From the IMG/VR virus record IMGVR_UViG_3300025913_000019: a stretch of 64,000 nucleotides of DNA; one strand, written 5' to 3'. Every line of letters starts with the position of its first letter. Within the stretch, counting starts at the first letter, position 1. Of this stretch, positions 1,065-54,823 are shown piece after piece. A model generated the notes under the pieces. The model was given only the letters and a program-made list of their open reading frames with translations. It made no database searches and was not told the origin of the DNA. Made by a program: the position numbers and the translations under genes. This stretch comes from a virus. Lineage: Duplodnaviria; Caudoviricetes.

Positions 1065-1644
1065 AGAAACCGCGATCCGTTCCATGCTCATGGAGCTGGA
1101 TGTCCCGCCTCACAAGCTGGACGTGTCGAAGCCCGACACCACCAAGTGGCTGCTCGACAACCTGCGAGTCCGCAACGTCGGCCACGTGGCCTACGCGCCG
1201 ATCATGGAGAACCTGATCCTCCTGTGCGAGCGCAAGAACTGGCTGAAGCACACGCGGCTCAAGTCCTATCGTGAGCACGTGGCGGAGGTGAAGAACAACG
1301 ACGCCTACCAGGCCTTGAAGGCCATGGTGAAGACGCCGGGGCCGTCCACCGGCCGCATGGACTCGGGCCGGACTCCTCCCTACCACAGCATCCCGGCTGG
1401 CCTGACGATCAAGCGTGCGCGGGAAGAGGCAGACAAGATGCTTCTGATCCCAAGGCAAGAGCCGAAGCCGGGTGCCAGGCTCATCATCACGATGCCCAAG
1501 GCCCGGCCTCCGGGCACCGGCATGGCCGTGATGGATGCACCTTACGGCCTTGGCAAGAGCAATGGCCCGCGTCGGCAGCGCGGTCGCATCAACGAAGAGG
1601 CCACTGCGGTTCGACTCGAAGAGGAGCTGAACCGCAAGACCTAA
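1057..1644 (+). CDS. Hypothetical protein
   Basis: 195-aa ORF overlapping the upstream stop. Confidence 0.75.
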   Translation: MIEETAIRSMLMELDVPPHKLDVSKPDTTKWLLDNLRVRNVGHVAYAPIMENLILLCERKNWLKHTRLKSYREHVAEVKNNDAYQALKAMVKTPGPSTGRMDSGRTPPYHSIPAGLTIKRAREEADKMLLIPRQEPKPGARLIITMPKARPPGTGMAVMDAPYGLGKSNGPRRQRGRINEEATAVRLEEELNRKT

Positions 1645-1650
1645 TTTCAT
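1642..1650 (+). promoter_or_regulatory. Motif B copy (TAATTTCAT), putative phage promoter
   Basis: Overlaps the stop of the upstream ORF, ~25 nt before the PEP-CTERM gene; matches four other copies. Confidence 0.4.
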
Positions 1651-1675
1651 TTCCTTCCAGTGAGAGGAGCGGATC

Positions 1676-2431
1676 ATGATGATTGCACTTGCGATCGCAG
1701 CAGCAACCCACGCGGCACCCGATGCGTGCTCGTGGGCTCAGCCTGGCCGCGATCCTTACCGAACCCGTGGTGAGCTGACGCGCGCCCTGGCCGACATGAA
1801 CATCGATTCGGCCGACAAGGCGCTCATCAAGGACAAGATGGAGCGCGTCGCGTACACCGAGATCGTGTCCATCGGTCGCGACCAGATCGACGGCTACGCG
1901 AACCTGCGCGACATGCACAGCGGTCACAGCACGTGCCATGGCCCTGTCAAGCGCGAGAGCTGGGACGCGAACCACGTCGAGCTCGCGCTCGTCTACTGCG
2001 GCAACGGTCCGACCTGCGTCGCCGTCCCCATCGTCTGCGACAACGTATCGCTGATCGACCGCGTGCCTCACGAGCAGGAGCCGGTGGCCGAGCTGGAGTT
2101 CGCACCGCCGGCTGCGGGCACACCCGTGACTGATCCCGCACCCGCGCCGGTCGAAGATCGCTCGTTCGCATTCGTGCCGGACGTGCCGACTGGCGGCTCC
2201 TACGGTGGAGGCGGCTTCGGCGGCGGTGACTATGGAGGTGGTGGAGGCGGCGGTCCCGTCTGGCCTCCGCACCCGCCCGCATCCGGTCCGGACTGTGGCT
2301 GCAAGCCGCCGCCTCCCGTGTGCCCGCCTCCGCCGCCCCCGATCAGCTCGGTGCCGGAGCCGGCTTCGCTCTGGCTCGCGGTTGCGGGTCTGCTGGTCCT
2401 GCGTTTCGTCAGGAAGATGAAGAAGAACTAG
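1676..2431 (+). CDS. PEP-CTERM surface protein, MHFG-family-like
   Basis: N-terminal signal peptide; LRDMHSG motif; Gly/Pro-rich linker; C-terminal VPEPASLWLAVAGLLVLRFVRKMKKN (VPEP + TM + basic tail). Confidence 0.85.
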   Translation: MMIALAIAAATHAAPDACSWAQPGRDPYRTRGELTRALADMNIDSADKALIKDKMERVAYTEIVSIGRDQIDGYANLRDMHSGHSTCHGPVKRESWDANHVELALVYCGNGPTCVAVPIVCDNVSLIDRVPHEQEPVAELEFAPPAAGTPVTDPAPAPVEDRSFAFVPDVPTGGSYGGGGFGGGDYGGGGGGGPVWPPHPPASGPDCGCKPPPPVCPPPPPPISSVPEPASLWLAVAGLLVLRFVRKMKKN

Positions 2432-2465
2432 AGGGTTGTGTCGTCCGATCAACTGGGAGATTCCT

Positions 2466-2657
2466 ATGGCATCCGACATTTGGCAACCGGTCAAGCGAGT
2501 TCCGACCCGTCGTGAAGAAGAGGCAAAGGCCGCCGAGCGCAAGGCGCAAGCTGCTCAGCCTCATCCCGTGCCCGGCAAGCCCGGGTTCTTCATCGACGGC
2601 CAGGGCCGCATGAGCTACAACCCCGATCTCGACAAGAACAAGCAAGCGTACAAGTGA
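2466..2657 (+). CDS. Hypothetical protein
   Basis: GGAG SD upstream of ATG 2466. Confidence 0.65.
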   Translation: MASDIWQPVKRVPTRREEEAKAAERKAQAAQPHPVPGKPGFFIDGQGRMSYNPDLDKNKQAYK

Positions 2658-2683
2658 GGAGGGACTCAACCAAGGAGTCTCAA

Positions 2684-2881
2684 ATGGCACTCAGCTCTCT
2701 GCTCGTCGTGATCCTCGTTCTCATCGTCATCGGCTTTCTGCTGTGGCTGGTGCAGACGAAGATCCCGATGGACCCGACGATCAAGACCATCATCTATTTC
2801 GTGGTGGTGCTCGCGGTCGTTCTCTGGCTGCTGAACGTGTTCGGCGTCCTCCACGCACTGACCGGCGTCCGCGTCGGATGA
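2684..2881 (+). CDS. Small two-TM membrane protein (Thivi_2564-family-like)
   Basis: AAGGAG SD; LLWLVQTKIPMDPTIKTII...VLWLLNVFG pattern. Confidence 0.7.
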   Translation: MALSSLLVVILVLIVIGFLLWLVQTKIPMDPTIKTIIYFVVVLAVVLWLLNVFGVLHALTGVRVG

Positions 2882-2888
2882 TCCACAG

Positions 2889-2898
2889 ACTGTAAAGA
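2889..2898 (+). promoter_or_regulatory. Motif A (ACTGTAAAGA), putative phage promoter
   Basis: Exact 10-mer, intergenic, also at 3130, 9754 and 11325. Confidence 0.6.
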
Positions 2899-2941
2899 CA
2901 AGGAGGTGACACATGTTATAGTCCAACAACGGAGCTATACC

Positions 2942-3127
2942 ATGAGTCGTTCGTACTACCACCGTCGCCATCGTCAATACTGGCGCACTCCGCATTACTG
3001 GATCACGCTGAACAACACCAAGCCCTGGCGTCAGGCGACTCGTCGCTTCTGTCAGGACCTGGTCAAGGGTCGTCGTGAGCTGGATGATGTGGAGCCGGTG
3101 GTTCAGCCCCTGCCCTACTGGGACTGA
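2942..3127 (+). CDS. Small basic hypothetical protein
   Basis: GGAG SD before ATG 2942. Confidence 0.6.
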   Translation: MSRSYYHRRHRQYWRTPHYWITLNNTKPWRQATRRFCQDLVKGRRELDDVEPVVQPLPYWD

Positions 3128-3129
3128 GA

Positions 3130-3139
3130 ACTGTAAAGA
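3130..3139 (+). promoter_or_regulatory. Motif A (ACTGTAAAGA)
   Basis: Exact intergenic copy. Confidence 0.6.
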
Positions 3140-3291
3140 AGGAGTACAAGGGCTTCGGCCCCCGTCAACAGGATAGCACCTGGCGAAACGGATGATGAAC
3201 ACGGCAAGCTGAACGTGCGAGTTGAGAAACGCACGGGCAGTTTTCGGGTAGCCACTCCCGATTCTTCATCAACGCCGTTAGGAGCTACACC

Positions 3292-3696
3292 ATGATCGCA
3301 TCGCAACAACCCCTGAACCTGACCGTCAACGTCTCCGGCTTCGTGCCGGTGGATGTGACCCTGCAACCGCTGCCGAGCCCCGCGACCAGTTCCGTGGCTG
3401 CGCCGGCGGTCATCAAGGAAGACGTGGTCCGTCGTGTCAACCTGCGGGACTTCATGTTCAAGCAGGTGGGCAAGTTCGTGACCATCGACTTCGTCAAGAA
3501 CGACGGCACCGACCGTATGCTGAACGGTCGCCTTGGAGTGCGGAAGCACCTGAAGGGCGGCGACAGCACGTTGGCCGATGCCGACAAGCCGTACTTGGTG
3601 GTCTATGACATGAAGGCGAAGGGTTACCGGGCAGTCAACCTGGAGACCGTGAAGGAAGTGCGTGCTCAACGGACGCGCTACACCGTGATCGGCTGA
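3292..3696 (+). CDS. SH3-fold phage protein (WYL_2/DUF2693-like)
   Basis: VTIDFVKNDGTDRMLNGRLGV...VVYDMKAKGYRAVNLE pattern. Confidence 0.55.
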   Translation: MIASQQPLNLTVNVSGFVPVDVTLQPLPSPATSSVAAPAVIKEDVVRRVNLRDFMFKQVGKFVTIDFVKNDGTDRMLNGRLGVRKHLKGGDSTLADADKPYLVVYDMKAKGYRAVNLETVKEVRAQRTRYTVIG

Positions 3697-3784
3697 TGGA
3701 ATTCCTGTAGGTGAGTAAGCCTGGACCCTCCCTAGCTTATTCGCGCGCACAGGCGGTGGGACTATTGCGAAGGTCCCAACCCCT

Positions 3785-3860
3785 GCTGTCTTAGCTCAGT
3801 TGGTAGAGCATCTGCCTTGTAAGCAGGAGGTCAAGGGTTCGAGTCCTTTAGGCAGCACCA
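3785..3860 (+). tRNA. tRNA-Thr(UGU)
   Basis: 76-nt cloverleaf; acceptor GCTGTCT/AGGCAGC; loop CTTGTAA; TTCGAGT T-loop; encoded CCA. Confidence 0.95.
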
Positions 3861-3879
3861 AACAACAAGAGGAGCCACT

Positions 3880-4308
3880 ATGTGGACGTGGAAGAGTGAA
3901 CTGAAGCGCTTCGGCGCAATCGTCGTGGTCGCAGCCGTCGGCATTGTCCTGATGGCCTCGACCACGAAGGCCAAGGCCACCGGCTACATGTACGGCGTGC
4001 CTCCGGGCGTCAAGGTCGACCACGATGTGAGCGGCGCCTTCGACGACACGGTCACGTTCGTGAGCCCGGCAACGGGCATCTACAACGTGACGTTCGAGGC
4101 CACGGACCTCCGTCCCATCAAGGTCGCAACCAAGTTCAAGATGGTGCAGCTGTCGACGACCCTCAAGGACGGCCGGCAGTTCTACAACATCACGCACAAC
4201 CCGGATGCCGCGATCTACGCAGAGCGCGGGCAGGTGTGGACCATCCGCTTCATCGGCACCTCGGCGGAACGCGGCGGCTCCTATTCGCTGCTGATCGATC
4301 CGCAGTAA
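3880..4308 (+). CDS. Exported/membrane-anchored hypothetical protein
   Basis: GAGGAG SD; hydrophobic N-terminal segment followed by a beta-rich domain. Confidence 0.75.
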   Translation: MWTWKSELKRFGAIVVVAAVGIVLMASTTKAKATGYMYGVPPGVKVDHDVSGAFDDTVTFVSPATGIYNVTFEATDLRPIKVATKFKMVQLSTTLKDGRQFYNITHNPDAAIYAERGQVWTIRFIGTSAERGGSYSLLIDPQ

Positions 4309-4319
4309 GACAAAGGCTG

Positions 4320-4400
4320 TGCCCGCTGCAGTCCTGGAGTCCTAGGCTCCAAAACCCTTCGGGGTAATAGCGGGAGACCGGGAGGCATGCCTCCCGGCAC
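4320..4400 (+). ncRNA. Structured non-coding element (three-way junction plus palindromic hairpin)
   Basis: CCCGCT/AGCGGG stem enclosing GGAG-TCCTAGG-CTCC and ACCC-TTCG-GGGT; perfect 20-nt palindrome 4378-4397. Confidence 0.45.
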
Positions 4401-4405
4401 CTATT

Positions 4406-4519
4406 CCGGGGGTGTCCAATGGGGGCCGCTAGTAGGGCGGGGCAAGGTACGAGACGCTGACGCGTTGCTTCCGAGCCCTGTGGCCAAACGCGCCAGGTTC
4501 GAATCCTGGAACCCGACCA
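4406..4519 (+). ncRNA. Degenerate tRNA-like RNA with ~50-nt variable insertion
   Basis: Perfect T-arm CCAGG-TTCGAAT-CCTGG (4493-4509), ends ACCA; only ~4 acceptor pairs; possible 7-nt loop TAGTAGG. Confidence 0.5.
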
Positions 4520-4523
4520 ACCC

Positions 4524-4654
4524 GAGTGCAGAGCTACGGGCCGAGGACCATGGGCCGTAATGGCGGTCACCGAGAACAAGCGGGAAGAAGTTGGTCACCT
4601 GACGGAGACCAGACCGGCGATGCTTGCGCGGCCTCGGTTCGTAGCTCTGCACTC
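4524..4654 (+). ncRNA. Unclassified RNA closed by a 23-bp stem
   Basis: 4524-4546 pairs with 4632-4654 (21 WC + 2 GU), enclosing 85 nt. Confidence 0.55.
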
Positions 4655-4686
4655 TTGTCCCCCAACCACAAACGAAGGTTCACCAC

Positions 4687-5067
4687 ATGAAGATCAAGCC
4701 CCGCAACGAGCACGTCGTCGTTCGCCGCATCCCCAGCCGTGAGAAGAGCAGCGGCATCATCATCCCGGGCCAGGAAACCGAGCGCGATCTCTTCGCCGTC
4801 ACCGCGGTGGGCCCCGGCGGCTTCACACCGGCCGGCACGCGTGCACCCATCGAGCTCGACGTCGGTCAGCCGATCGTTCCCGGCATGCTCGTCTTCGTCC
4901 GCCCCGGCGACTACGAGATGTTCGACTCGGACCCGAACAGCCCGGGCGACGAAAGCCTGCGCATGGTGATCCCGCAGTCGGCCATCATCGGCGTCGAGGT
5001 CGACGACAACGACCAGCCGCTGATGTTCGCCGAGCCCGCGCAGTCGATGATCGCGACCCTCAACTGA
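4687..5067 (+). CDS. groES: GroES/Cpn10-like co-chaperonin
   Basis: MKIKPRNEHVVVRR, mobile loop SSGIIIPG, VTAVGPG. Confidence 0.85.
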   Translation: MKIKPRNEHVVVRRIPSREKSSGIIIPGQETERDLFAVTAVGPGGFTPAGTRAPIELDVGQPIVPGMLVFVRPGDYEMFDSDPNSPGDESLRMVIPQSAIIGVEVDDNDQPLMFAEPAQSMIATLN

Positions 5068-5080
5068 CCAAGGAGCTGCC

Positions 5081-5380
5081 ATGAGCACAACCTGGAAGGA
5101 CGCGCTGGCGGACAAGCCGAGCGTCATCGATTTCGTGCAATCCATCGTCGACCAAGTTCCGACCACGGGCGGCGCCCAGGACGCATTCGAGATGGCGCTC
5201 AACGGCCTGGCGACCTTCGTGCCCGAAGAGATCCAGATCAAGGCCGACAAGTTCGACGCGCTGGTCGACGAAGGCGTCGACGAGTGGGCCGGCTACGAGT
5301 CCGCCATGGCCGAGTTCGAGGACGAGGACGGCGATGACGACTCAGATTCGGACGACGGCGACGAAGACGACGAGGACTGA
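5081..5380 (+). CDS. Acidic hypothetical protein
   Basis: AAGGAG SD; D/E-rich tail. Confidence 0.75.
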   Translation: MSTTWKDALADKPSVIDFVQSIVDQVPTTGGAQDAFEMALNGLATFVPEEIQIKADKFDALVDEGVDEWAGYESAMAEFEDEDGDDDSDSDDGDEDDED

Positions 5381-5382
5381 CC

Positions 5383-5661
5383 ATGGGCTGGCGCTCGTGG
5401 TTCGGCCTCAAGGAGCCGGTCCGGTTCATGGATGAGAGCGACGAGAAGGTTCGTGGCGCCCTCACCCTGCTGTCCCAGCTCGGTAGCAACAACGTCCACT
5501 GGAACGACGTGGACGTGATGGCGACGGCGAAGGCCGCGCTGTTCGAGGAACCCAGGTACGCACGCGCGGGCCTGGAACGCATCGCTGCCGCGGTGTCGCC
5601 CGGTGATCTCTTCATCAACGGAGTTGACATCGGCCTCCTGGCCGAGCGCGGCTTGCAATGA
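5383..5661 (+). CDS. Hypothetical protein
   Basis: 92-aa ORF coupled to the upstream gene. Confidence 0.7.
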   Translation: MGWRSWFGLKEPVRFMDESDEKVRGALTLLSQLGSNNVHWNDVDVMATAKAALFEEPRYARAGLERIAAAVSPGDLFINGVDIGLLAERGLQ

Positions 5662-5669
5662 GCAACGAA

Positions 5670-5707
5670 GGTACCCGGCACCTGGTTCGATCCCAGGGCC
5701 CGGTATC
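5670..5707 (+). other. Isolated T-arm/minihelix-like hairpin
   Basis: CCTGG-TTCGATC-CCAGG (5681-5697) on a ~9-bp lower stem; no 5' tRNA half found. Confidence 0.4.
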
Positions 5708-5717
5708 TCCGGCAGGG

Positions 5718-5832
5718 TGGAGAGTGACGAAATTGGTAGACGTGCTGCCTTGGCAAGGGTGGTGCCCCTCGGGTCTCGGCCGCCAACTGAGACAATGAGG
5801 ACCGCGTGCTGGTTCGAGTCCAGCCTCTCCAT
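5718..5832 (+). tRNA. Atypical class-II-like tRNA: anticodon GGC, 8-nt loop, 45-nt variable arm, no encoded CCA
   Basis: Perfect acceptor TGGAGAG/CTCTCCA; Leu/Ser-type D-arm ACG-AAATTGGTAGA-CGT; T-arm GCTGG-TTCGAGT-CCAGC. Confidence 0.75.
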
Positions 5833-5854
5833 TTCTCCGAAACGGTAAAGAAGT

Positions 5855-6070
5855 AACATCGCGTTGCAGCGATAGGGCAAGCTGATCGTGCCCTGGTTTG
5901 CGCCTGACCAAATTCGGCGTTCGCGCTCGTAGTGGTCGGCCGTAGTTGACATGTGCCTGGCATGTCTGCGCCTAAGCACTCTGTGCACAGATTAGAGGCC
6001 CGCCGGGTTGGTTGCAGATCCTTGCCGGCGGCCACCTACATGTAGCTTGCGTGCCAGACACGCGAGCCTG
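5855..6070 (+). ncRNA. Unclassified multi-hairpin RNA
   Basis: About seven consecutive hairpins in a gap with no credible gene, preceded by the motif-A variant ACGGTAAAGA (5842-5851). Confidence 0.45.
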
Positions 6071-6099
6071 ATTCCCCAACCACAGCCTAGGAGCTGAAG

Positions 6100-6252
6100 A
6101 TGAAGAAGACCCTGTTCTCCGCCGCACTGCTGATCGCGGTCGCCCTCGGTGGCGTCGCCATGGCCCAGGATTCGACGCCGGACGGCTGCATGCCCGGCAA
6201 CGGCGGCTCGGCCCCCATCTGCACCCCGGGCACGGGCCCCGGCGGCAAGTAA
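6100..6252 (+). CDS. 50-aa secreted peptide with two Cys
   Basis: AGGAG SD; MKKTLFSAALLIAVALGGVAMA signal + QDSTPDGCMPGNGGSAPICTPGTGPGGK; too short for the ORF track. Confidence 0.8.
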   Translation: MKKTLFSAALLIAVALGGVAMAQDSTPDGCMPGNGGSAPICTPGTGPGGK

Positions 6253-6255
6253 AGA

Positions 6256-6740
6256 TCAACGCAGCGAGGGCGAAAGAAGAGTCACCCGCAGTTGCAGTGA
6301 GAAGTCCCGCCTCCCCAGGGACGACGTAGTGTCCGAGCAATCGGGCGTGTGTCAAACCATAGGGAACATGGTCGTGTGTCGGCACTCGCCGACGAGAGTC
6401 TGAAGCTGACGGATGTTGGACGGGGGTTCGATTCCCCCCGGCTCCACCACTAGCGCCTGCGTACATGCGGGTGCTAGTGATGGGGCCGACCAGGTTTCGA
6501 CAGCGTTGCTGATGTGGAGGACGACGACTCGCGCGTATGGCCTAGTCTAGCTCAGCGTTACAGAGCCGACAGGGTACAAAACTAACTGCCAACGACGAGC
6601 AATTCGCTCAGGCCCTCGCGGCCTAAGCGCAGAACAGCTGCGGGTTCTACCTAGGCAACTAGGTGTGTACGCAGCCGGGCCGGACACAGCGGATAACCTC
6701 TGCTGTGTGTCTGAGTAAGCCGGGGCCGCAAGGTCCAGGT
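6256..6740 (+). ncRNA. ssrA: Circularly permuted (two-piece) tmRNA; outer ends approximate
   Basis: T-arm GGGGG-TTCGATT-CCCCC + CGGCTCC-A-CCA (ends 6449) precedes a 32-nt hairpin spacer and the 5' end GGGGCCGACCAGGTTTCGAC (6482); G3.U70 pair; tag ORF follows. Confidence 0.9.
6588..6626 (+). other. tmRNA tag reading frame (A)ANDEQFAQALAA*
   Basis: AAAACTAACT|GCC resume context; C-terminal ALAA degron. Confidence 0.9.
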
Positions 6741-6805
6741 TAGGGACGGTGGGCTTCGGCTCTCTGCTCCCGAACGTCCGGCCCACCCCTAACAATGAGG
6801 CATCG

Positions 6806-7201
6806 ATGACTGAACTGAAGACCGCACCGGTGGACACGGCCTACGCCGAGATGCAGGCCTACGTCGCCAAGTTGGAAGCCGCCGGCGTCAAGAGCGACAA
6901 CGGCTGGTACCCGATCATGACGGCTCCGTGGGAGATCGAGATCATGATCGGCCGCTGGCAGACGATCGGCAACAAGGAGCCGCAGTTCATCACCTGCAAG
7001 TCGAGCCAGGAGCACGACCCGGGCAACGAGTTCGAGGGCGAAGCCGCCTACGACTACTGGGCGACCGATGACGACACAGCAGGCGTGGTCGACTCGGCGA
7101 TGCCTGATGTCTGGCGTCCCATCTTTCCCCAGCCTGCGTTCATCAACACCTACGAAGACCAGCTGGCCGAACAGGCCGCGGCTGCCGAGGGAGAAGGCTG
7201 A
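6806..7201 (+). CDS. Hypothetical protein
   Basis: GAGG SD before ATG 6806. Confidence 0.75.
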   Translation: MTELKTAPVDTAYAEMQAYVAKLEAAGVKSDNGWYPIMTAPWEIEIMIGRWQTIGNKEPQFITCKSSQEHDPGNEFEGEAAYDYWATDDDTAGVVDSAMPDVWRPIFPQPAFINTYEDQLAEQAAAAEGEG

Positions 7202-7449
7202 TGGGAGTCGTCGTGTTTCCTGGCCACGAAGGTTCGGCGCTCGAAGCTCTGGCAAAGGCGAAGACCGCGGTCGACGAGATCGGCCCGGATGCACGGATCT
7301 TCATCTTCGTCCGCGATCCGAAGAAGCAGGCCACGCGCTCTCTGAGTTCGGAGTTCAATACCATCGATCTCGCAGTCGTGACCGCCTACGTCAACGCATA
7401 TTGCTCGGATCACATGATGCGAGCGCAGGGCGAGGACGGCGACGATTAG
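7201..7449 (+). CDS. Hypothetical protein
   Basis: TGATG coupling. Confidence 0.7.
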   Translation: MGVVVFPGHEGSALEALAKAKTAVDEIGPDARIFIFVRDPKKQATRSLSSEFNTIDLAVVTAYVNAYCSDHMMRAQGEDGDD

Positions 7450-7506
7450 TACAACGAGCCCCGGGTCGAGCAGTCGATGCCGGGGCTACCCATTTCTGGA
7501 GCACAC

Positions 7507-52894: not shown

Positions 52895-54145
52895 TTACAG
52901 GTTGGAATGGCACTGATGAGACATCAGCTCGAAGGCGACAGTCGTGACCGTCACGTTGGCCGTGCCGTTCGACATCGCCAGCTCCTGACCCATGAATGCG
53001 GTGTTGAGAGGCAGGGTCGAACCCGTGATGAACGAATCCACGAGAACGCTGCCGGTCAGCACGTCGGTCAGCTTGTAGCCGATAGTGCTGCCGTTCGGGT
53101 CGCAGGCCATCTCGAAGTCGTAGGTTGCGCCAGCGGCCAGCGCCGAGCCCAGGGTGATCGCGTTCTTGACGGCGGTGCCGGCGTTGACGACCACAAGGCT
53201 CAGGGTCGAGGCCGAGTCCGTCGTGTCATGCCAGAGGCCGATACCGTTGCCGGTCAGGGTGTCGGAGATCACGTAGCCGGAGTTCGAATCGTTGAGACCG
53301 ACGAACAGGCGAACGGTCGCGGCGGCCCAAAGGCCGACAGCGAAGCGCGCATGGAACTGGAAGCCACCCTGCCCGCTGGCATTGCCGCGCCAGTAGCGCT
53401 TTTCAGCTGTCGCCGTGCGAAGACCGAGGACCTGATTGGTCGTCGTCACCACGTTGGCCCAGCGCGTGCGCTTCTGCTGCGCGTAGATACCGGCCGACGG
53501 GGTCGGGTGGCTGACCGTACCGCCAGAGGTCCAACCGACGCCGATGTTGAGACCGACGGTGGAGCCCGTGTTCGGGAAGTAGCAGCTGTAGCCGGACGAG
53601 GACAGACGCTCCTGGAAGCGACGGAACTGGCCGTCAGGCGCAACCCACAGAGGCACCATGCGTTGAGCGACGGTACCGCTGTAGATCGCAAGCGTGCTCG
53701 GATCGGGGGCGGCCGGCGCGTCGACTGTGGTCGCGGCCAGCGTGAGGCGATAGCCCACACCGGTCTGCTTGGGTGTCCCGTCCGAACCGAAGTACGTCCA
53801 GTAGCCGCTCGCGTCGAGGATCACGCGCTCGCCGAAGCCGAGTGTGCCGGCCCACAGGCGGACCACGTTGGTGCCGTCGTAGAACTCGACGCGGATCGCA
53901 TTGTTGACCGACGACGAATCGTTGGCGACGATCAGGCCAGTGACGTTGCGACACGTGGATGCCGCAGGGGACGCGACCACGGTGGTCGTCGTCGCGGTCG
54001 TGATCTGCGTCACGGCGGGGCCGCCGACACCGGTTGCAGCGGGTGTCGACTGGCTCACGTCCACGTAAGACGCCTGCACATCGATTGCGCCGGCAGAGCC
54101 CGTGACGACGCGGATGATGGCAGTTGTGGAATTCAGATTGAGCAT
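52895..54145 (-). CDS. Probable fibre/decoration protein
   Basis: T/G/S-rich beta-sandwich composition; context. Confidence 0.7.
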   Translation of the reverse strand: MLNLNSTTAIIRVVTGSAGAIDVQASYVDVSQSTPAATGVGGPAVTQITTATTTTVVASPAASTCRNVTGLIVANDSSSVNNAIRVEFYDGTNVVRLWAGTLGFGERVILDASGYWTYFGSDGTPKQTGVGYRLTLAATTVDAPAAPDPSTLAIYSGTVAQRMVPLWVAPDGQFRRFQERLSSSGYSCYFPNTGSTVGLNIGVGWTSGGTVSHPTPSAGIYAQQKRTRWANVVTTTNQVLGLRTATAEKRYWRGNASGQGGFQFHARFAVGLWAAATVRLFVGLNDSNSGYVISDTLTGNGIGLWHDTTDSASTLSLVVVNAGTAVKNAITLGSALAAGATYDFEMACDPNGSTIGYKLTDVLTGSVLVDSFITGSTLPLNTAFMGQELAMSNGTANVTVTTVAFELMSHQCHSNL

Positions 54146-54154
54146 GTCAGTACC

Positions 54155-54823
54155 TTAGTTTGTGTCGATCCAGATGTCACCAACCGCAGGATTTGCCGGC
54201 GCGGTCGTACCCACCGACACCGATGCCTCCGGGTGCCAATAGGTTCCGTCCCAGTAGACAGGACGGCCCAGCGTTGACGACCACGCCTGATAGCCGGTAG
54301 TACCGGGGTTAGGCGTCGTGTCACCAGCGGCCACAGCCACCGTGGCAGGATTGACCGTGGACCAGACCGGCGCAGAGCTGGAGCCCTGCGAGGTCAGCAC
54401 CTGTCCGCTCGTGCCGTAGTTCGCACCCGAGAGACCCCAGGCACCGGCGCCCGTGAAACGCAGACGCTCTGTGCTGTTCGTGTAGAACCGCATGTCAGCG
54501 TTTGCACGCTGGACGAGCTGCGCGATGGACGACGAATCCTGACGGAACAGGAAGCCCGAGGTGCCGATGACGTTGCCGTTACCCGCGATTTCGATGCTGC
54601 CGTTCTGAGCACTGGGTGCCGCAACGCTGAACAGCGGAGATCCTGCCGCCGACGTGAGTGCGAGGTTGCCAGTCAGCGTGTTCGACCACTGACTGTCTCC
54701 ACGCAGGAACATCGTCGAGTCGGCAGTGCCCGTGCCCAGCGCCGCCGGGCTGACTACGTCAGTCGACAGCAGCTGGCACAGGTCCCCATTCGCATCGATG
54801 TAGATTGGAAGTCGATTTGCCAT
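54155..54823 (-). CDS. Fibre-like protein
   Basis: FLRGD, GTSGQVLTSQG, VGTTAPANPAVGDIWIDTN motifs. Confidence 0.75.
   Translation of the reverse strand: MANRLPIYIDANGDLCQLLSTDVVSPAALGTGTADSTMFLRGDSQWSNTLTGNLALTSAAGSPLFSVAAPSAQNGSIEIAGNGNVIGTSGFLFRQDSSSIAQLVQRANADMRFYTNSTERLRFTGAGAWGLSGANYGTSGQVLTSQGSSSAPVWSTVNPATVAVAAGDTTPNPGTTGYQAWSSTLGRPVYWDGTYWHPEASVSVGTTAPANPAVGDIWIDTN

What the first reader, a model, noticed from the sequence alone, without database searches (positions are those of the whole stretch)
6256..6740. Phage-encoded circularly permuted (two-piece) tmRNA
Seen: the tmRNA 3' module (GGAC, T-arm, CGGCTCC-A-CCA ending 6449) lies upstream of the 5' module (GGGGCCG at 6482). They are separated by a 32-nt spacer that folds as CTAGCGCCTGC/GCGGGTGCTAG. 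The acceptor keeps the G3.U70 Ala determinant, and cross-piece helices (AGCGTT/GATGTT, GACTC/GAGTC) are possible. The tag reads ANDEQFAQALAA. Known: permuted tmRNAs occur in Alphaproteobacteria, some cyanobacteria and some Betaproteobacteria. Inference: the putative acceptor piece here is long (~190 nt), so this may be an independent permutation or a captured host variant that rescues ribosomes during infection.
Basis: partly seen in the sequence, partly recalled or inferred. Interest (0 to 1): 0.8.

Follow-up and report, generated by a model that had tools for sequence, protein, structure and literature searches.

The report
Phage two-piece tmRNA gene, beta-type
A large soil phage really does carry a rearranged ("two-piece") gene for tmRNA, the RNA that frees stalled ribosomes, but it is a divergent copy of a type already common in phages of Beta- and Gammaproteobacteria, not a new rearrangement.

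Summary
ARAGORN calls a permuted tmRNA at 6357-6717 (+) with tag ANDEQFAQALAA. Rfam's general permuted-tmRNA model scores 87.5 bits against a cut-off of 47. The same gene order appears in independent assemblies, so it is not a misjoin.

The window is a jumbo myophage related to Ralstonia phage phiRSL1 and comes from rhizosphere and soil metagenomes.

The "independent permutation" idea is not supported. The betaproteobacterial model is the only lineage model that aligns end to end (69.7 bits, under its cut-off of 84; alpha 33, cyano 45, both local). 18 of 20 of its long-range pairs can form, and the tag starts like Rhodocyclaceae tags.

The RNA is only about 50-57% identical to any other tmRNA, so it is not a recent capture.

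The "~190 nt acceptor piece" is also unsupported. The structured part starts near 6370, giving about 80 nt. Sister strains carry a 114-nt tRNA-like insert at 6366/6367.

Beta-type permuted tmRNAs already sit in cultured phages (Marzo, DLP_6, SM1) and in many IMG/VR contigs. Papers describe phage two-piece tmRNAs. This scan has noted them in hundreds of other genomes.

Verdict: a new, divergent member of a known kind. Interest is low.

The parts
6254..6366 (+). Upstream leader. It is not part of the structured tmRNA. It contains two hairpins, about 6304-6322 and about 6322-6354 (the second with a GCAA loop). Its role is unknown: transcript leader or promoter region.
   Evidence: It has no substitution against G001 although the local divergence is 2.8%. 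It is separated from the tmRNA by a 114-nt insertion in G001, L068 and X4. It aligns only to the unpaired positions 1-51 of RF01850, which I read as the host promoter. No sigma-70 consensus was found.
6370..6449 (+). Acceptor piece, about 80 nt. It holds the outer P2 strand GGUCG (6370-6374), a lineage-specific local hairpin (6378-6393), the inner P2 strand GAUGUUG (6412-6418), the T-arm (6422-6438), the acceptor 3' strand (6439-6445), A73 (6446) and an encoded CCA (6447-6449).
   Evidence: Alignments to RF04321 and RF01850; ARAGORN places the 3' tRNA domain at 6411-6449; sequence read directly.
6450..6481 (+). Intervening spacer, presumably removed on maturation. It forms an 11-bp hairpin and ends in U6481, just before the inferred RNase P site. 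It holds no ORF.
   Evidence: It aligns to the spacer loop of RF01850, about 30 nt in the model.
6482..6529 (+). 5' end of the coding piece. It holds the acceptor 5' strand GGGGCCG (6482-6488, with G3.U70), the D-loop analogue ACCAGGUUUCGA (6489-6500) and the P2 partner strands (6501-6529).
   Evidence: Under the RF01850 structure 18 of 20 P2 pairs can form, four of them changed on both sides relative to the consensus. This was counted by hand from the alignment.
6530..6587 (+). Region before the tag, where PK1 would lie. It carries 35 nt where the model has 12. Its fold was not resolved here.
   Evidence: insert of 35 against 12. Hand inspection and minimum-free-energy folds gave no consistent pseudoknot.
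6588..6626 (+). Tag reading frame: GCC resume codon, 12 codons giving ANDEQFAQALAA, and a UAA stop.
   Evidence: ARAGORN. It aligns to the tag of RF01850 and RF04321. Rhodocyclaceae host tags are ANDEQFAIAA and ANDERFALAA.
6627..6717 (+). 3' part of the coding piece. It holds a hairpin at 6628-6642 just after the stop, a GCAA-loop hairpin at 6648-6665, and a terminal hairpin at 6682-6711. The true 3' end is uncertain and may lie as far as about 6793.
   Evidence: Folds. A relative seen in run X17 has three changes on both sides of pairs in the terminal hairpin: 6686/6706 A-U to G-C, 6687/6705 C-G to U-A, and 6691/6701 G.U to C-G. The same contig runs on to 6788.
6738..6793 (+). Long imperfect hairpin between the tmRNA and the next gene, whose RBS is at 6797-6800 and ATG at 6806. 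It may mark a transcript end or be a regulatory structure. It is not clearly part of the tmRNA.
   Evidence: Sequence and fold. G6752A in G001, X4 and X17 breaks a pair without compensation, so constraint is weak.

Best explanation
This is a functional, phage-borne ssrA gene of the circularly permuted (two-piece) kind. It belongs to the same architectural lineage as the two-piece tmRNA of Rhodocyclaceae-type Betaproteobacteria, and it is strongly diverged.

Inferred mechanism:
1. The gene is transcribed on the + strand with its neighbours. It has no host-type promoter of its own.
2. Host tRNA-processing enzymes cut the precursor: RNase P before G6482, and 3' trimming back to the encoded CCA at 6449. 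The 32-nt spacer hairpin is discarded.
3. The ~80-nt acceptor piece (about 6370-6449) and the coding piece (6482 to about 6717) stay together through the 7-bp acceptor stem and the P2 helices.
4. Host AlaRS charges the RNA through G3.U70 and A73.
5. With host SmpB and EF-Tu it enters stalled ribosomes, and translation resumes at GCC 6588.
6. The tag ANDEQFAQALAA is added. Its ALAA end directs the product to host proteases.

The likely benefit to a ~230-kb lytic phage is to keep ribosomes available while host and phage mRNAs are being cut during infection.

Shown here: the gene's anatomy, its family resemblance, its conservation and its occurrence in independent samples. Inferred only: transcription, processing, charging, tagging and the benefit.
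For: Detection:
- ARAGORN calls a permuted tmRNA.
- RF04321 scores 87.5 bits against a cut-off of 47.

Lineage:
- RF01850 (beta) aligns over the full model 1-331 at 69.7 bits, E 8.5e-21.
- On the identical gene in G001, alpha scores 33.2 bits (local), cyano 44.6 bits (local) and beta 64.5 bits (full length).
- 18 of 20 P2 pairs, 7 of 7 acceptor pairs and 5 of 5 T-arm pairs can form.
- Against sister L004, the outer P2 helix keeps pairing through changes on both strands.
- The tag begins ANDEQFA, like Rhodocyclaceae tags. 44 of 121 genomes of that family carry beta-type tmRNA.

Selection:
- There are no substitutions across 6254-6707 against G001, where local divergence is 2.8%. This is the longest substitution-free run in the first 10.6 kb.
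- There are three compensatory pair changes in the 3' hairpin of a relative.

Not an artefact: the same junction appears in G001, L068, X4 and X7.

Precedent:
- Beta-type permuted tmRNAs above the cut-off occur in Stenotrophomonas phages DLP_6 and Marzo and in Pseudomonas phage SM1.
- 16 of 20 sampled IMG/VR contigs have one.
- These complete phage genomes also lack SmpB, so reliance on host SmpB is the norm.
- In L004 a tRNA ends a few bases before the acceptor piece. In G001 a tRNA-like module sits at the same spot. Both fit a 5' end made by processing.
Against: - The score against the lineage-specific beta model is below Rfam's cut-off (69.7 against 84).
- Two P2 pairs fail.
- Minimum-free-energy folds prefer local hairpins (6378-6393, and 6502-6529) over the long-range P2.
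- GAGUC 6396-6400 could pair with GACUC 6526-6530 instead of the model's outer helix.
- PK1 could not be defined.
- There is no promoter or terminator consensus.
- No SmpB is found in the 91 kb seen.
- There is no direct evidence of transcription or processing. The only RNA-library signal is two low-depth contigs of a relative, and these could be DNA carry-over.
- The host is unknown. If it has a one-piece tmRNA, compatibility with its SmpB is assumed, not shown.
Confidence: 0.85

Rival explanations
1. This is an independent, fourth permutation event. In this reading the phage or its host rearranged a one-piece betaproteobacterial tmRNA on its own, and the likeness to the beta two-piece lineage is convergence.
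For: - The score is below the RF01850 cut-off.
- Identity to any known permuted tmRNA is only 50-57%.
- It sits on a very long branch outside the Rhodocyclaceae clade.
- It has an extra hairpin in the acceptor piece and an enlarged region before the tag.
Against: - It aligns end to end with the beta model, in the same order and with similar sizes: the P2 strand starts right at the 5' end, the spacer is about 30 nt, and two 3' hairpins follow the tag.
- The P2 helices are kept in register (18 of 20 pairs).
- Nearest relative L004 shares its acceptor stem and scores 165.8 bits as beta-type, which bridges it to the lineage.
- Many phage copies form a continuum of scores from 95 to 160 bits.
Confidence: 0.05
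2. This is a non-rescuing copy. It could be a decaying hitch-hiker, or a decoy that titrates host SmpB or AlaRS and blocks host trans-translation, as reported for the CDS-less tmRNA-like RNA of mycobacteriophage DS6A.
For: - It diverges strongly from host tmRNAs and its PK1 is unresolved.
- It scores below the cut-off on the beta model.
- PMC11915505 cites a phage tmRNA-like RNA that inhibits host tmRNA.
Against: - The tag frame is intact, with a canonical resume context and an ALAA end.
- All identity elements are intact.
- There are zero substitutions between strains across the whole gene in a 2.8%-divergent neighbourhood.
- A relative shows compensatory changes.
- A decoy would not need to keep a degron-type tag.
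Confidence: 0.08
3. This is an attachment-site remnant. Temperate elements often integrate into ssrA and carry a fragment of it.
For: tmRNA genes are frequent integration sites (PMC11915505).
Against: - Both pieces, the spacer and the full tag are present, not a 3' fragment.
- The phage is a phiRSL1-like jumbo myophage.
- None of the window proteins scanned (20 ORFs, the eight nearest neighbours included) matched an integrase family; most of the window's ORFs were not scanned.
- The gene sits in a tRNA/RNA island on the coding strand.
Confidence: 0.01

Closest known systems
Betaproteobacterial two-piece tmRNA (Rfam RF01850 beta_tmRNA; Sharkady & Williams 2004, cited in PMC9004378), as found in Rhodocyclaceae
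   Same: - The gene order is the same: P2 strand, T-arm, CCA, a spacer of about 30 nt, GGGG acceptor strand, D-loop analogue, P2 strand, tag, two 3' hairpins.
- It aligns over the full model.
- The tag begins ANDEQFA and ends AA.
- G3.U70 is present.
   Different: - It scores 69.7 bits, where hosts score 160-331.
- Identity is about 50%.
- The tag is 12 residues, not 10.
- The acceptor piece has about 19 extra nt, forming a local hairpin, and the region before the tag has 35 nt where the model has 12.
- There is no host-type promoter.
- The acceptor stem sequence is CGGCUCC/GGGGCCG rather than the host consensus.
- It is carried by a phage.
Beta-type permuted tmRNAs of cultured phages: Stenotrophomonas phage Marzo and other Menderavirus (annotated tmRNA), Stenotrophomonas phage DLP_6, and Pseudomonas phage SM1/PaMx31
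   Same: - They are phage-borne and sit in or next to tRNA clusters.
- They are permuted and hit RF01850 best (94.6-111.2 bits).
- Their tags are 12-14 residues, of the form AND..F/Y...(L/I)AA.
- Their genomes hold no SmpB.
   Different: - They score above the Rfam cut-off; this one does not.
- The phage families differ (T4-like, and 93-kb siphophages), and their hosts are Gammaproteobacteria.
- They are not close in sequence; there was no blastn match to the window.
Two-piece tmRNAs of aquatic myophages (Methylophilales phage Melnitz, pelagimyophages; PMC9004378)
   Same: They are phage-encoded, circularly permuted ssrA genes presumed to use host SmpB. That paper counted 53 two-piece forms among 133 unique phage tmRNAs.
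   Different: - Melnitz's gene is of the alphaproteobacterial type and carries a glutamine riboswitch.
- This one is beta-type, is GC-rich, comes from soil or rhizosphere, and no riboswitch was detected.
L004, a 4.5-kb contig binned into a 'Methanoregula' MAG; nearest relative found
   Same: - It has the same acceptor-stem sequence and D-loop analogue.
- It is permuted and groups as sister in the tree with 99/91 support.
- Its 5' end abuts a tRNA, as the G001 variant abuts a tRNA-like module.
   Different: - Identity is only 54-57%.
- L004 fits the beta model well (165.8 bits) and has a 10-residue tag, ANDSIFAMAA.
- Its GC content is 49%.

Membership tests
tmRNA, permuted gene form (Rfam RF04321; ARAGORN 'tmRNA*') | The covariance-model score reaches the curated cut-off | tested here: met
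   87.5 bits against a cut-off of 47, E 2e-15, over the full model 1-213.
tmRNA, permuted gene form (Rfam RF04321; ARAGORN 'tmRNA*') | The 3' tRNA-like half (T-arm, acceptor strand, CCA) lies upstream of the 5' half (GGGG acceptor strand, D-loop analogue) on the same strand, separated by a short spacer | tested here: met
   3' half at 6411-6449, spacer at 6450-6481, 5' half at 6482-6508. The same order appears in four other assemblies.
tmRNA, permuted gene form (Rfam RF04321; ARAGORN 'tmRNA*') | Alanine identity: a G3.U70 wobble in a 7-bp acceptor stem, an A73 discriminator, and a CCA end | tested here: met
   G6484 pairs with U6443; A6446 is the discriminator; CCA is at 6447-6449. All seven pairs form.
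tmRNA, permuted gene form (Rfam RF04321; ARAGORN 'tmRNA*') | A short tag frame that starts at an Ala resume codon without an initiation codon and ends in a hydrophobic (A/L)AA degron plus a stop | tested here: met
   GCC at 6588, ANDEQFAQALAA, UAA at 6624-6626.
tmRNA, permuted gene form (Rfam RF04321; ARAGORN 'tmRNA*') | A pseudoknot (PK1) lies between P2 and the resume codon | tested here: inconclusive
   The region 6530-6587 is present but 23 nt longer than in the model. No consistent pseudoknot came from hand inspection or folds.
tmRNA, permuted gene form (Rfam RF04321; ARAGORN 'tmRNA*') | The precursor is processed into two base-paired RNAs, alanylated, binds SmpB, and tags non-stop products | not testable with these tools
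   No raw RNA reads of this phage were available. Only contigs of a relative in one RNA library were seen. No SmpB is found in the 91-kb related record, so host SmpB is assumed.
Betaproteobacterial two-piece tmRNA lineage (Rfam RF01850) | The covariance-model score reaches the curated cut-off (84 bits) | tested here: not met
   69.7 bits in the window and 64.5 bits in G001. It is still the best of the three lineage models (alpha 33.2, cyano 44.6, both local).
Betaproteobacterial two-piece tmRNA lineage (Rfam RF01850) | Lineage architecture: the acceptor piece starts at the outer P2 strand; five P2 helix segments are in register; the spacer is about 30 nt; two hairpins follow the tag | tested here: met
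   The global alignment covers 1-331. 18 of 20 P2 pairs can form, four of them changed on both sides against the consensus. The 3' hairpins are present but poorly aligned.
Betaproteobacterial two-piece tmRNA lineage (Rfam RF01850) | A betaproteobacterial tag of the form ANDE(R/Q)FA(L/I)AA | tested here: met
   ANDEQFA-QA-LAA against ANDEQFAIAA and ANDERFALAA in 31 Rhodocyclaceae loci. It is two residues longer.
Betaproteobacterial two-piece tmRNA lineage (Rfam RF01850) | It groups phylogenetically within the lineage | tested here: inconclusive
   In a tree of permuted beta-type sequences only (no outgroup), it has an end branch of 5.66 changes per site and is sister to L004, outside the Rhodocyclaceae clade. 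Placement of so long a branch is unreliable.

The most novel reading that the evidence does not exclude
The gene represents a separate, fast-evolving, phage-maintained sublineage of the beta-type two-piece tmRNA. Its features would be an expanded acceptor piece, an enlarged region before the tag, and a 12-residue tag. Its 5' end would be made by tRNA-type processing of an exchangeable upstream tRNA-like module rather than by a promoter. It would be deployed in hosts (Burkholderiales-like, as for phiRSL1 relatives) whose own tmRNA is one-piece. The phage would then import a foreign rescue RNA, for example to replace host tmRNA that is shut off or targeted during infection.
Probability: 0.3. Interest if true: 0.35.

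Novelty: new member of a known kind. Interest (0 to 1): 0.2.

Why it matters
This adds one more, unusually divergent, example to a well-populated class, phage-encoded two-piece tmRNAs.

It has modest value in three ways:
- It shows that this cargo occurs in a soil or rhizosphere phiRSL1-like jumbo phage. The four cultured relatives checked lack it.
- The current Rfam beta model misses such divergent phage copies at its cut-off.
- Within one phage population, the module just upstream of the tmRNA is exchangeable.

It does not open a new question about trans-translation. Why phages carry tmRNA at all remains untested, and this locus offers no special handle on that question, because the phage is uncultured.

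Tried and rejected
- **blastn against GenBank phages.** The tmRNA region gave no match.
- **Mis-specified pattern scan.** One viral-contig scan was wasted because I wrote 7 N instead of 6 between the T-loop and CTCCACCA. It returned 0 hits and was corrected.
- **Thermodynamic folding.** Cofolds, with or without constraints, did not reproduce the comparative P2 helices and gave no consistent PK1. I rely on the covariance-model alignment instead.
- **Promoter and terminator scan.** The sigma-70 and intrinsic-terminator scan of 3500-7500 found no + strand site near the gene.
- **RNA run X17, high depth.** The huge depth at 6416-6449, with adapter sequence right after CCA, comes from short contigs with 2-4 mismatches. 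These are other tRNAs or tmRNAs sharing the T-arm, so I do not count them as evidence of expression or of a 3' end.
- **Other RNA runs.** X17-X20 hold only 5-7% of the sampled words.
- **Tree.** It could not place the window reliably because of the very long branch.
- **Leader pairing.** The pairing of the leader (6301-6316) with 6738-6757 suggested by one fold is imperfect, and the G6752A variant is not compensated. I rejected it.
- **Extra permuted copies in Burkholderiales genomes.** Pfam on their flanks (L007, L010) showed an aminotransferase and a chemotaxis receptor and no phage genes. A prophage origin for those copies is therefore not shown.
- **Papers and supplements.** PMC516066 and PMC16621 are not held. 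The supplements of PMC11915505 held as text contain no phage table. Two jumbo-phage reviews do not mention tmRNA.

Full report
**1. Is it there?**

Yes. Read directly, the + strand has the following, in order:
- GGAC at 6418-6421.
- A T-arm at 6422-6438, with loop UUCGAUU.
- The acceptor 3' strand CGGCUCC at 6439-6445, A6446, and CCA at 6447-6449.
- A 32-nt spacer at 6450-6481 that forms an 11-bp hairpin.
- The acceptor 5' strand GGGGCCG at 6482-6488.
- The D-loop analogue ACCAGGUUUCGA.

The seven acceptor pairs include G6484.U6443, the G3.U70 alanine determinant. ARAGORN calls a permuted tmRNA at 6357-6717 with tag ANDEQFAQALAA. The frame is GCC at 6588 through UAA at 6624-6626. Rfam's general permuted-tmRNA model RF04321 scores 87.5 bits (cut-off 47, E 2e-15) over its full length.

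The permuted junction is not a misassembly:
- The gene is identical in IMG/VR record G001.
- It is identical in JGI metagenome contig L068.
- A contig from run X7 spans 6432-6695 with no difference, one from run X4 covers 6368-6900, and one from run X6 covers 6482-6816.

**2. Context**

The window is phage DNA. PHROGs finds a large terminase, a portal protein, a UvsX-like recombinase, an SSB, a baseplate wedge and an endolysin/peptidase. TerL is 54% identical to that of Ralstonia phage phiRSL1 (231 kb), 50-52% to Burkholderia phages BCSR5 and BcepSauron, and 45% to Achromobacter phage Motura.

G001 is 91 kb and is estimated at 39% of a genome, which fits a jumbo phage of about 230 kb. Genes on both sides of the tmRNA are on the + strand.

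The stretch occurs in rhizosphere and soil metagenomes. Six runs from six studies hold at least 64% of its sampled words, and one of them may be the source sample.

None of the four cultured relatives has a permuted tmRNA. No SmpB is encoded in G001, which spans the whole window. The rest of the genome is unseen.

**3. Which lineage?**

With permissive thresholds, the best lineage-specific model is beta_tmRNA (RF01850). It scores 69.7 bits, E 8.5e-21, as a global alignment of model 1-331 to window 6319-6686. On the identical gene in G001:
- alpha_tmRNA gives 33.2 bits, covering only the tRNA-like core;
- cyano_tmRNA gives 44.6 bits, also core only;
- beta_tmRNA gives 64.5 bits, full length.

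All are below their cut-offs, so by Rfam's rule this is not a canonical beta_tmRNA. But only the beta architecture fits end to end.

I read the P2 helices off the alignment:
- 6412-6418 with 6501-6507: 7 of 7 pairs.
- 6387-6390 with 6513-6516: 3 of 4 pairs.
- 6384-6385 with 6519-6520: 1 of 2 pairs.
- 6379-6380 with 6523-6524: 2 of 2 pairs.
- 6370-6374 with 6525-6529: 5 of 5 pairs.

That is 18 of 20 pairs, four of them changed on both sides relative to the consensus. Against nearest relative L004, the outer helix changes U-A to G.U and U-A to C-G.

The tag begins like Rhodocyclaceae tags. ANDEQFAIAA and ANDERFALAA occur in 31 loci, and 44 of 121 genomes of that family carry the beta type.

**4. 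It is not a recent capture**

Identity to any host or phage tmRNA I gathered is 45-57%. In a tree its end branch is 5.66 changes per site. It is sister to L004 with 99/91 support and lies outside the Rhodocyclaceae clade. The placement of so long a branch is not to be trusted.

L004 is a 4.5-kb contig with five tRNAs around its tmRNA, which makes it phage-like. It shares the window's acceptor-stem sequence.

Features specific to the window's lineage:
- About 19 extra nt in the acceptor piece, forming a perfect 6-bp hairpin at 6378-6393.
- 35 nt where the model has 12 before the tag.
- A tag two residues longer.

**5. The acceptor piece is about 80 nt, not about 190 nt**

In the beta model, positions 1-51 are unpaired. 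Their consensus reads like a -35/-10 promoter. This is my reading of the consensus and is an inference. The first helix aligns at 6370.

In G001, L068 and a contig of run X4, a 114-115-nt insertion sits exactly at 6366/6367 while the tmRNA is unchanged. A contig of run X6 has the window's form. The insert folds as a degenerate cloverleaf plus a UUCG hairpin, but neither ARAGORN nor Rfam calls it a tRNA. In L004 a tRNA-Asn ends a few bases before the acceptor piece.

Together these suggest that in phages the acceptor piece's 5' end is made by processing, not by a dedicated promoter.

The leader 6254-6366 is nevertheless fully conserved against G001. It may be a transcript leader or hold signals. 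No sigma-70 consensus is nearby. The nearest copy of a repeated + strand motif, ACTGTAAAKA, is at 5842; that motif has 8 hits against 1.1 expected.

**6. Is it under selection?**

Window and G001 differ at 2.8% of positions over the first 10.6 kb. Yet 6254-6707 has no substitution, which makes it the longest clean run in that part. Differences resume at 6708.

A relative seen in a plant metatranscriptome (X17) appears as two low-depth contigs, covering 6522-6624 and 6641-6788. In the terminal hairpin 6682-6711 it shows:
- three changes on both sides of a pair (6686/6706, 6687/6705, 6691/6701);
- one wobble change (6690);
- one change that breaks a pair (6684).

This supports a conserved 3' hairpin. 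It is at most a weak hint of expression, because contigs in an RNA library can derive from DNA.

**7. Mechanism**

All steps here are inferred from what is established for two-piece tmRNA, as summarised in PMC11915505 and PMC9004378.
1. A precursor is cut by tRNA-processing enzymes at 6449 and 6482.
2. The two pieces are held together by the acceptor stem and P2.
3. Host AlaRS alanylates the RNA.
4. It is delivered with host SmpB.
5. Translation resumes at GCC 6588.
6. The ALAA-ended tag sends products to host proteases.

Complete genomes of other phages with beta-type permuted tmRNA also lack SmpB.

**8. Novelty**

Phage tmRNAs, including two-piece ones, are described in print. PMC9004378 counts 53 two-piece forms among 133 unique phage tmRNAs. 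PMC7162821 reports tmRNA and SmpB in huge phages. PMC11915505 lists 79 bacteriophage tmRNAs.

I found beta-type permuted tmRNAs above the Rfam cut-off in three kinds of cultured phage:
- Stenotrophomonas phage Marzo, where it is annotated;
- Stenotrophomonas phage DLP_6, where it is unannotated;
- Pseudomonas phage SM1, where it is unannotated.

A single exact pattern found 53 IMG/VR contigs with permuted tmRNAs. Of 20 non-redundant ones, 16 pass the beta model.

This scan's own notes hold 596 findings with these words in at least 431 genomes. Several of those report a protein gene nested in the spacer. Here the spacer is a plain 32-nt hairpin.

The finding is real but ordinary: a new, divergent member of a known kind.

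Noticed in passing
window 6366/6367; L001 1367-1480; L068: Strain polymorphism. G001, L068 and a contig of run X4 carry a 114-115-nt insert immediately upstream of the tmRNA acceptor piece. It consists of a degenerate cloverleaf (7-bp acceptor-like stem and a 7-bp T-like stem) plus a UUCG hairpin. The window and a contig of run X6 lack it. Neither ARAGORN nor Rfam calls it a tRNA.
   Followed up: partly
window 3785-3860 vs G001 5654-5743: At the same locus with identical flanks, the window has a normal 76-nt tRNA-Thr(UGU). The 98%-identical strain G001 has a 90-nt class-II-bodied tRNA (long variable arm, Leu/Ser-type D-arm, A73) with the same UGU anticodon. This is a cassette swap, and the product might be charged with a non-Thr amino acid.
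   Followed up: partly
window 2889, 3130, 5842, 9754, 11325, 15497, 29373, 44059 (+): The motif ACTGTAAAKA occurs 8 times (at most 1 mismatch) against 1.1 expected, always on the + strand and mostly in intergenic positions. It is a candidate phage promoter or regulatory site. The copy at 5842 is the nearest one upstream of the small ORF at 6100-6252 and the tmRNA.
   Followed up: partly
L003, L005-L008, L010, L011 (genome contigs); standard copies L014-L016: Herbaspirillum, Pseudaquabacterium and a Comamonadaceae MAG each have a normal one-piece tmRNA (187-217 bits) and also a second, beta-type permuted tmRNA. The tag of the second copy often does not end in LAA (ANDSQFLAYGT, ANDDVYLVTGTRG, ANQDVYHVQAYG). 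The flanks checked look chromosomal, not prophage. Second tmRNAs with non-degron tags may deserve their own look.
   Followed up: partly
L004 (contig CAZVFG010000104.1, binned as Methanoregula MAG), 1459-3372: A 4.5-kb contig holds five tRNAs, a beta-type permuted tmRNA (165.8 bits) and an abiF RNA motif hit at 2854-2897. It looks like a phage tRNA island mis-binned into an archaeal MAG. The MAG has no SmpB. This may bear on the reported 'archaeal tmRNAs' (PMC11915505).
   Followed up: partly
L061 (KU682439.2 about 102807-103150) and L063 (KU245542.1 about 54041-54461): Stenotrophomonas phage DLP_6 and Pseudomonas phage SM1 (with PaMx31-like relatives) carry permuted beta-type tmRNA genes. The tags are ANDDSFAPMAIAA and ANDTSFDVRLAA. 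Neither gene is annotated in its GenBank record.
   Followed up: yes
window 6253/6254: There is an 11-nt indel (GCCAGCGCAAC, present in G001, L068 and X4) directly after the stop codon of the small signal-peptide ORF at 6100-6252.
   Followed up: no
window 4687-5067 and 5081-5380: Neighbouring small genes include a GroES-like Cpn10 (E 2.4e-7) and a protein with a weak match to the T7 gp5.9 RecBCD-inhibitor family (25.4 bits, cut-off 24.5).
   Followed up: no
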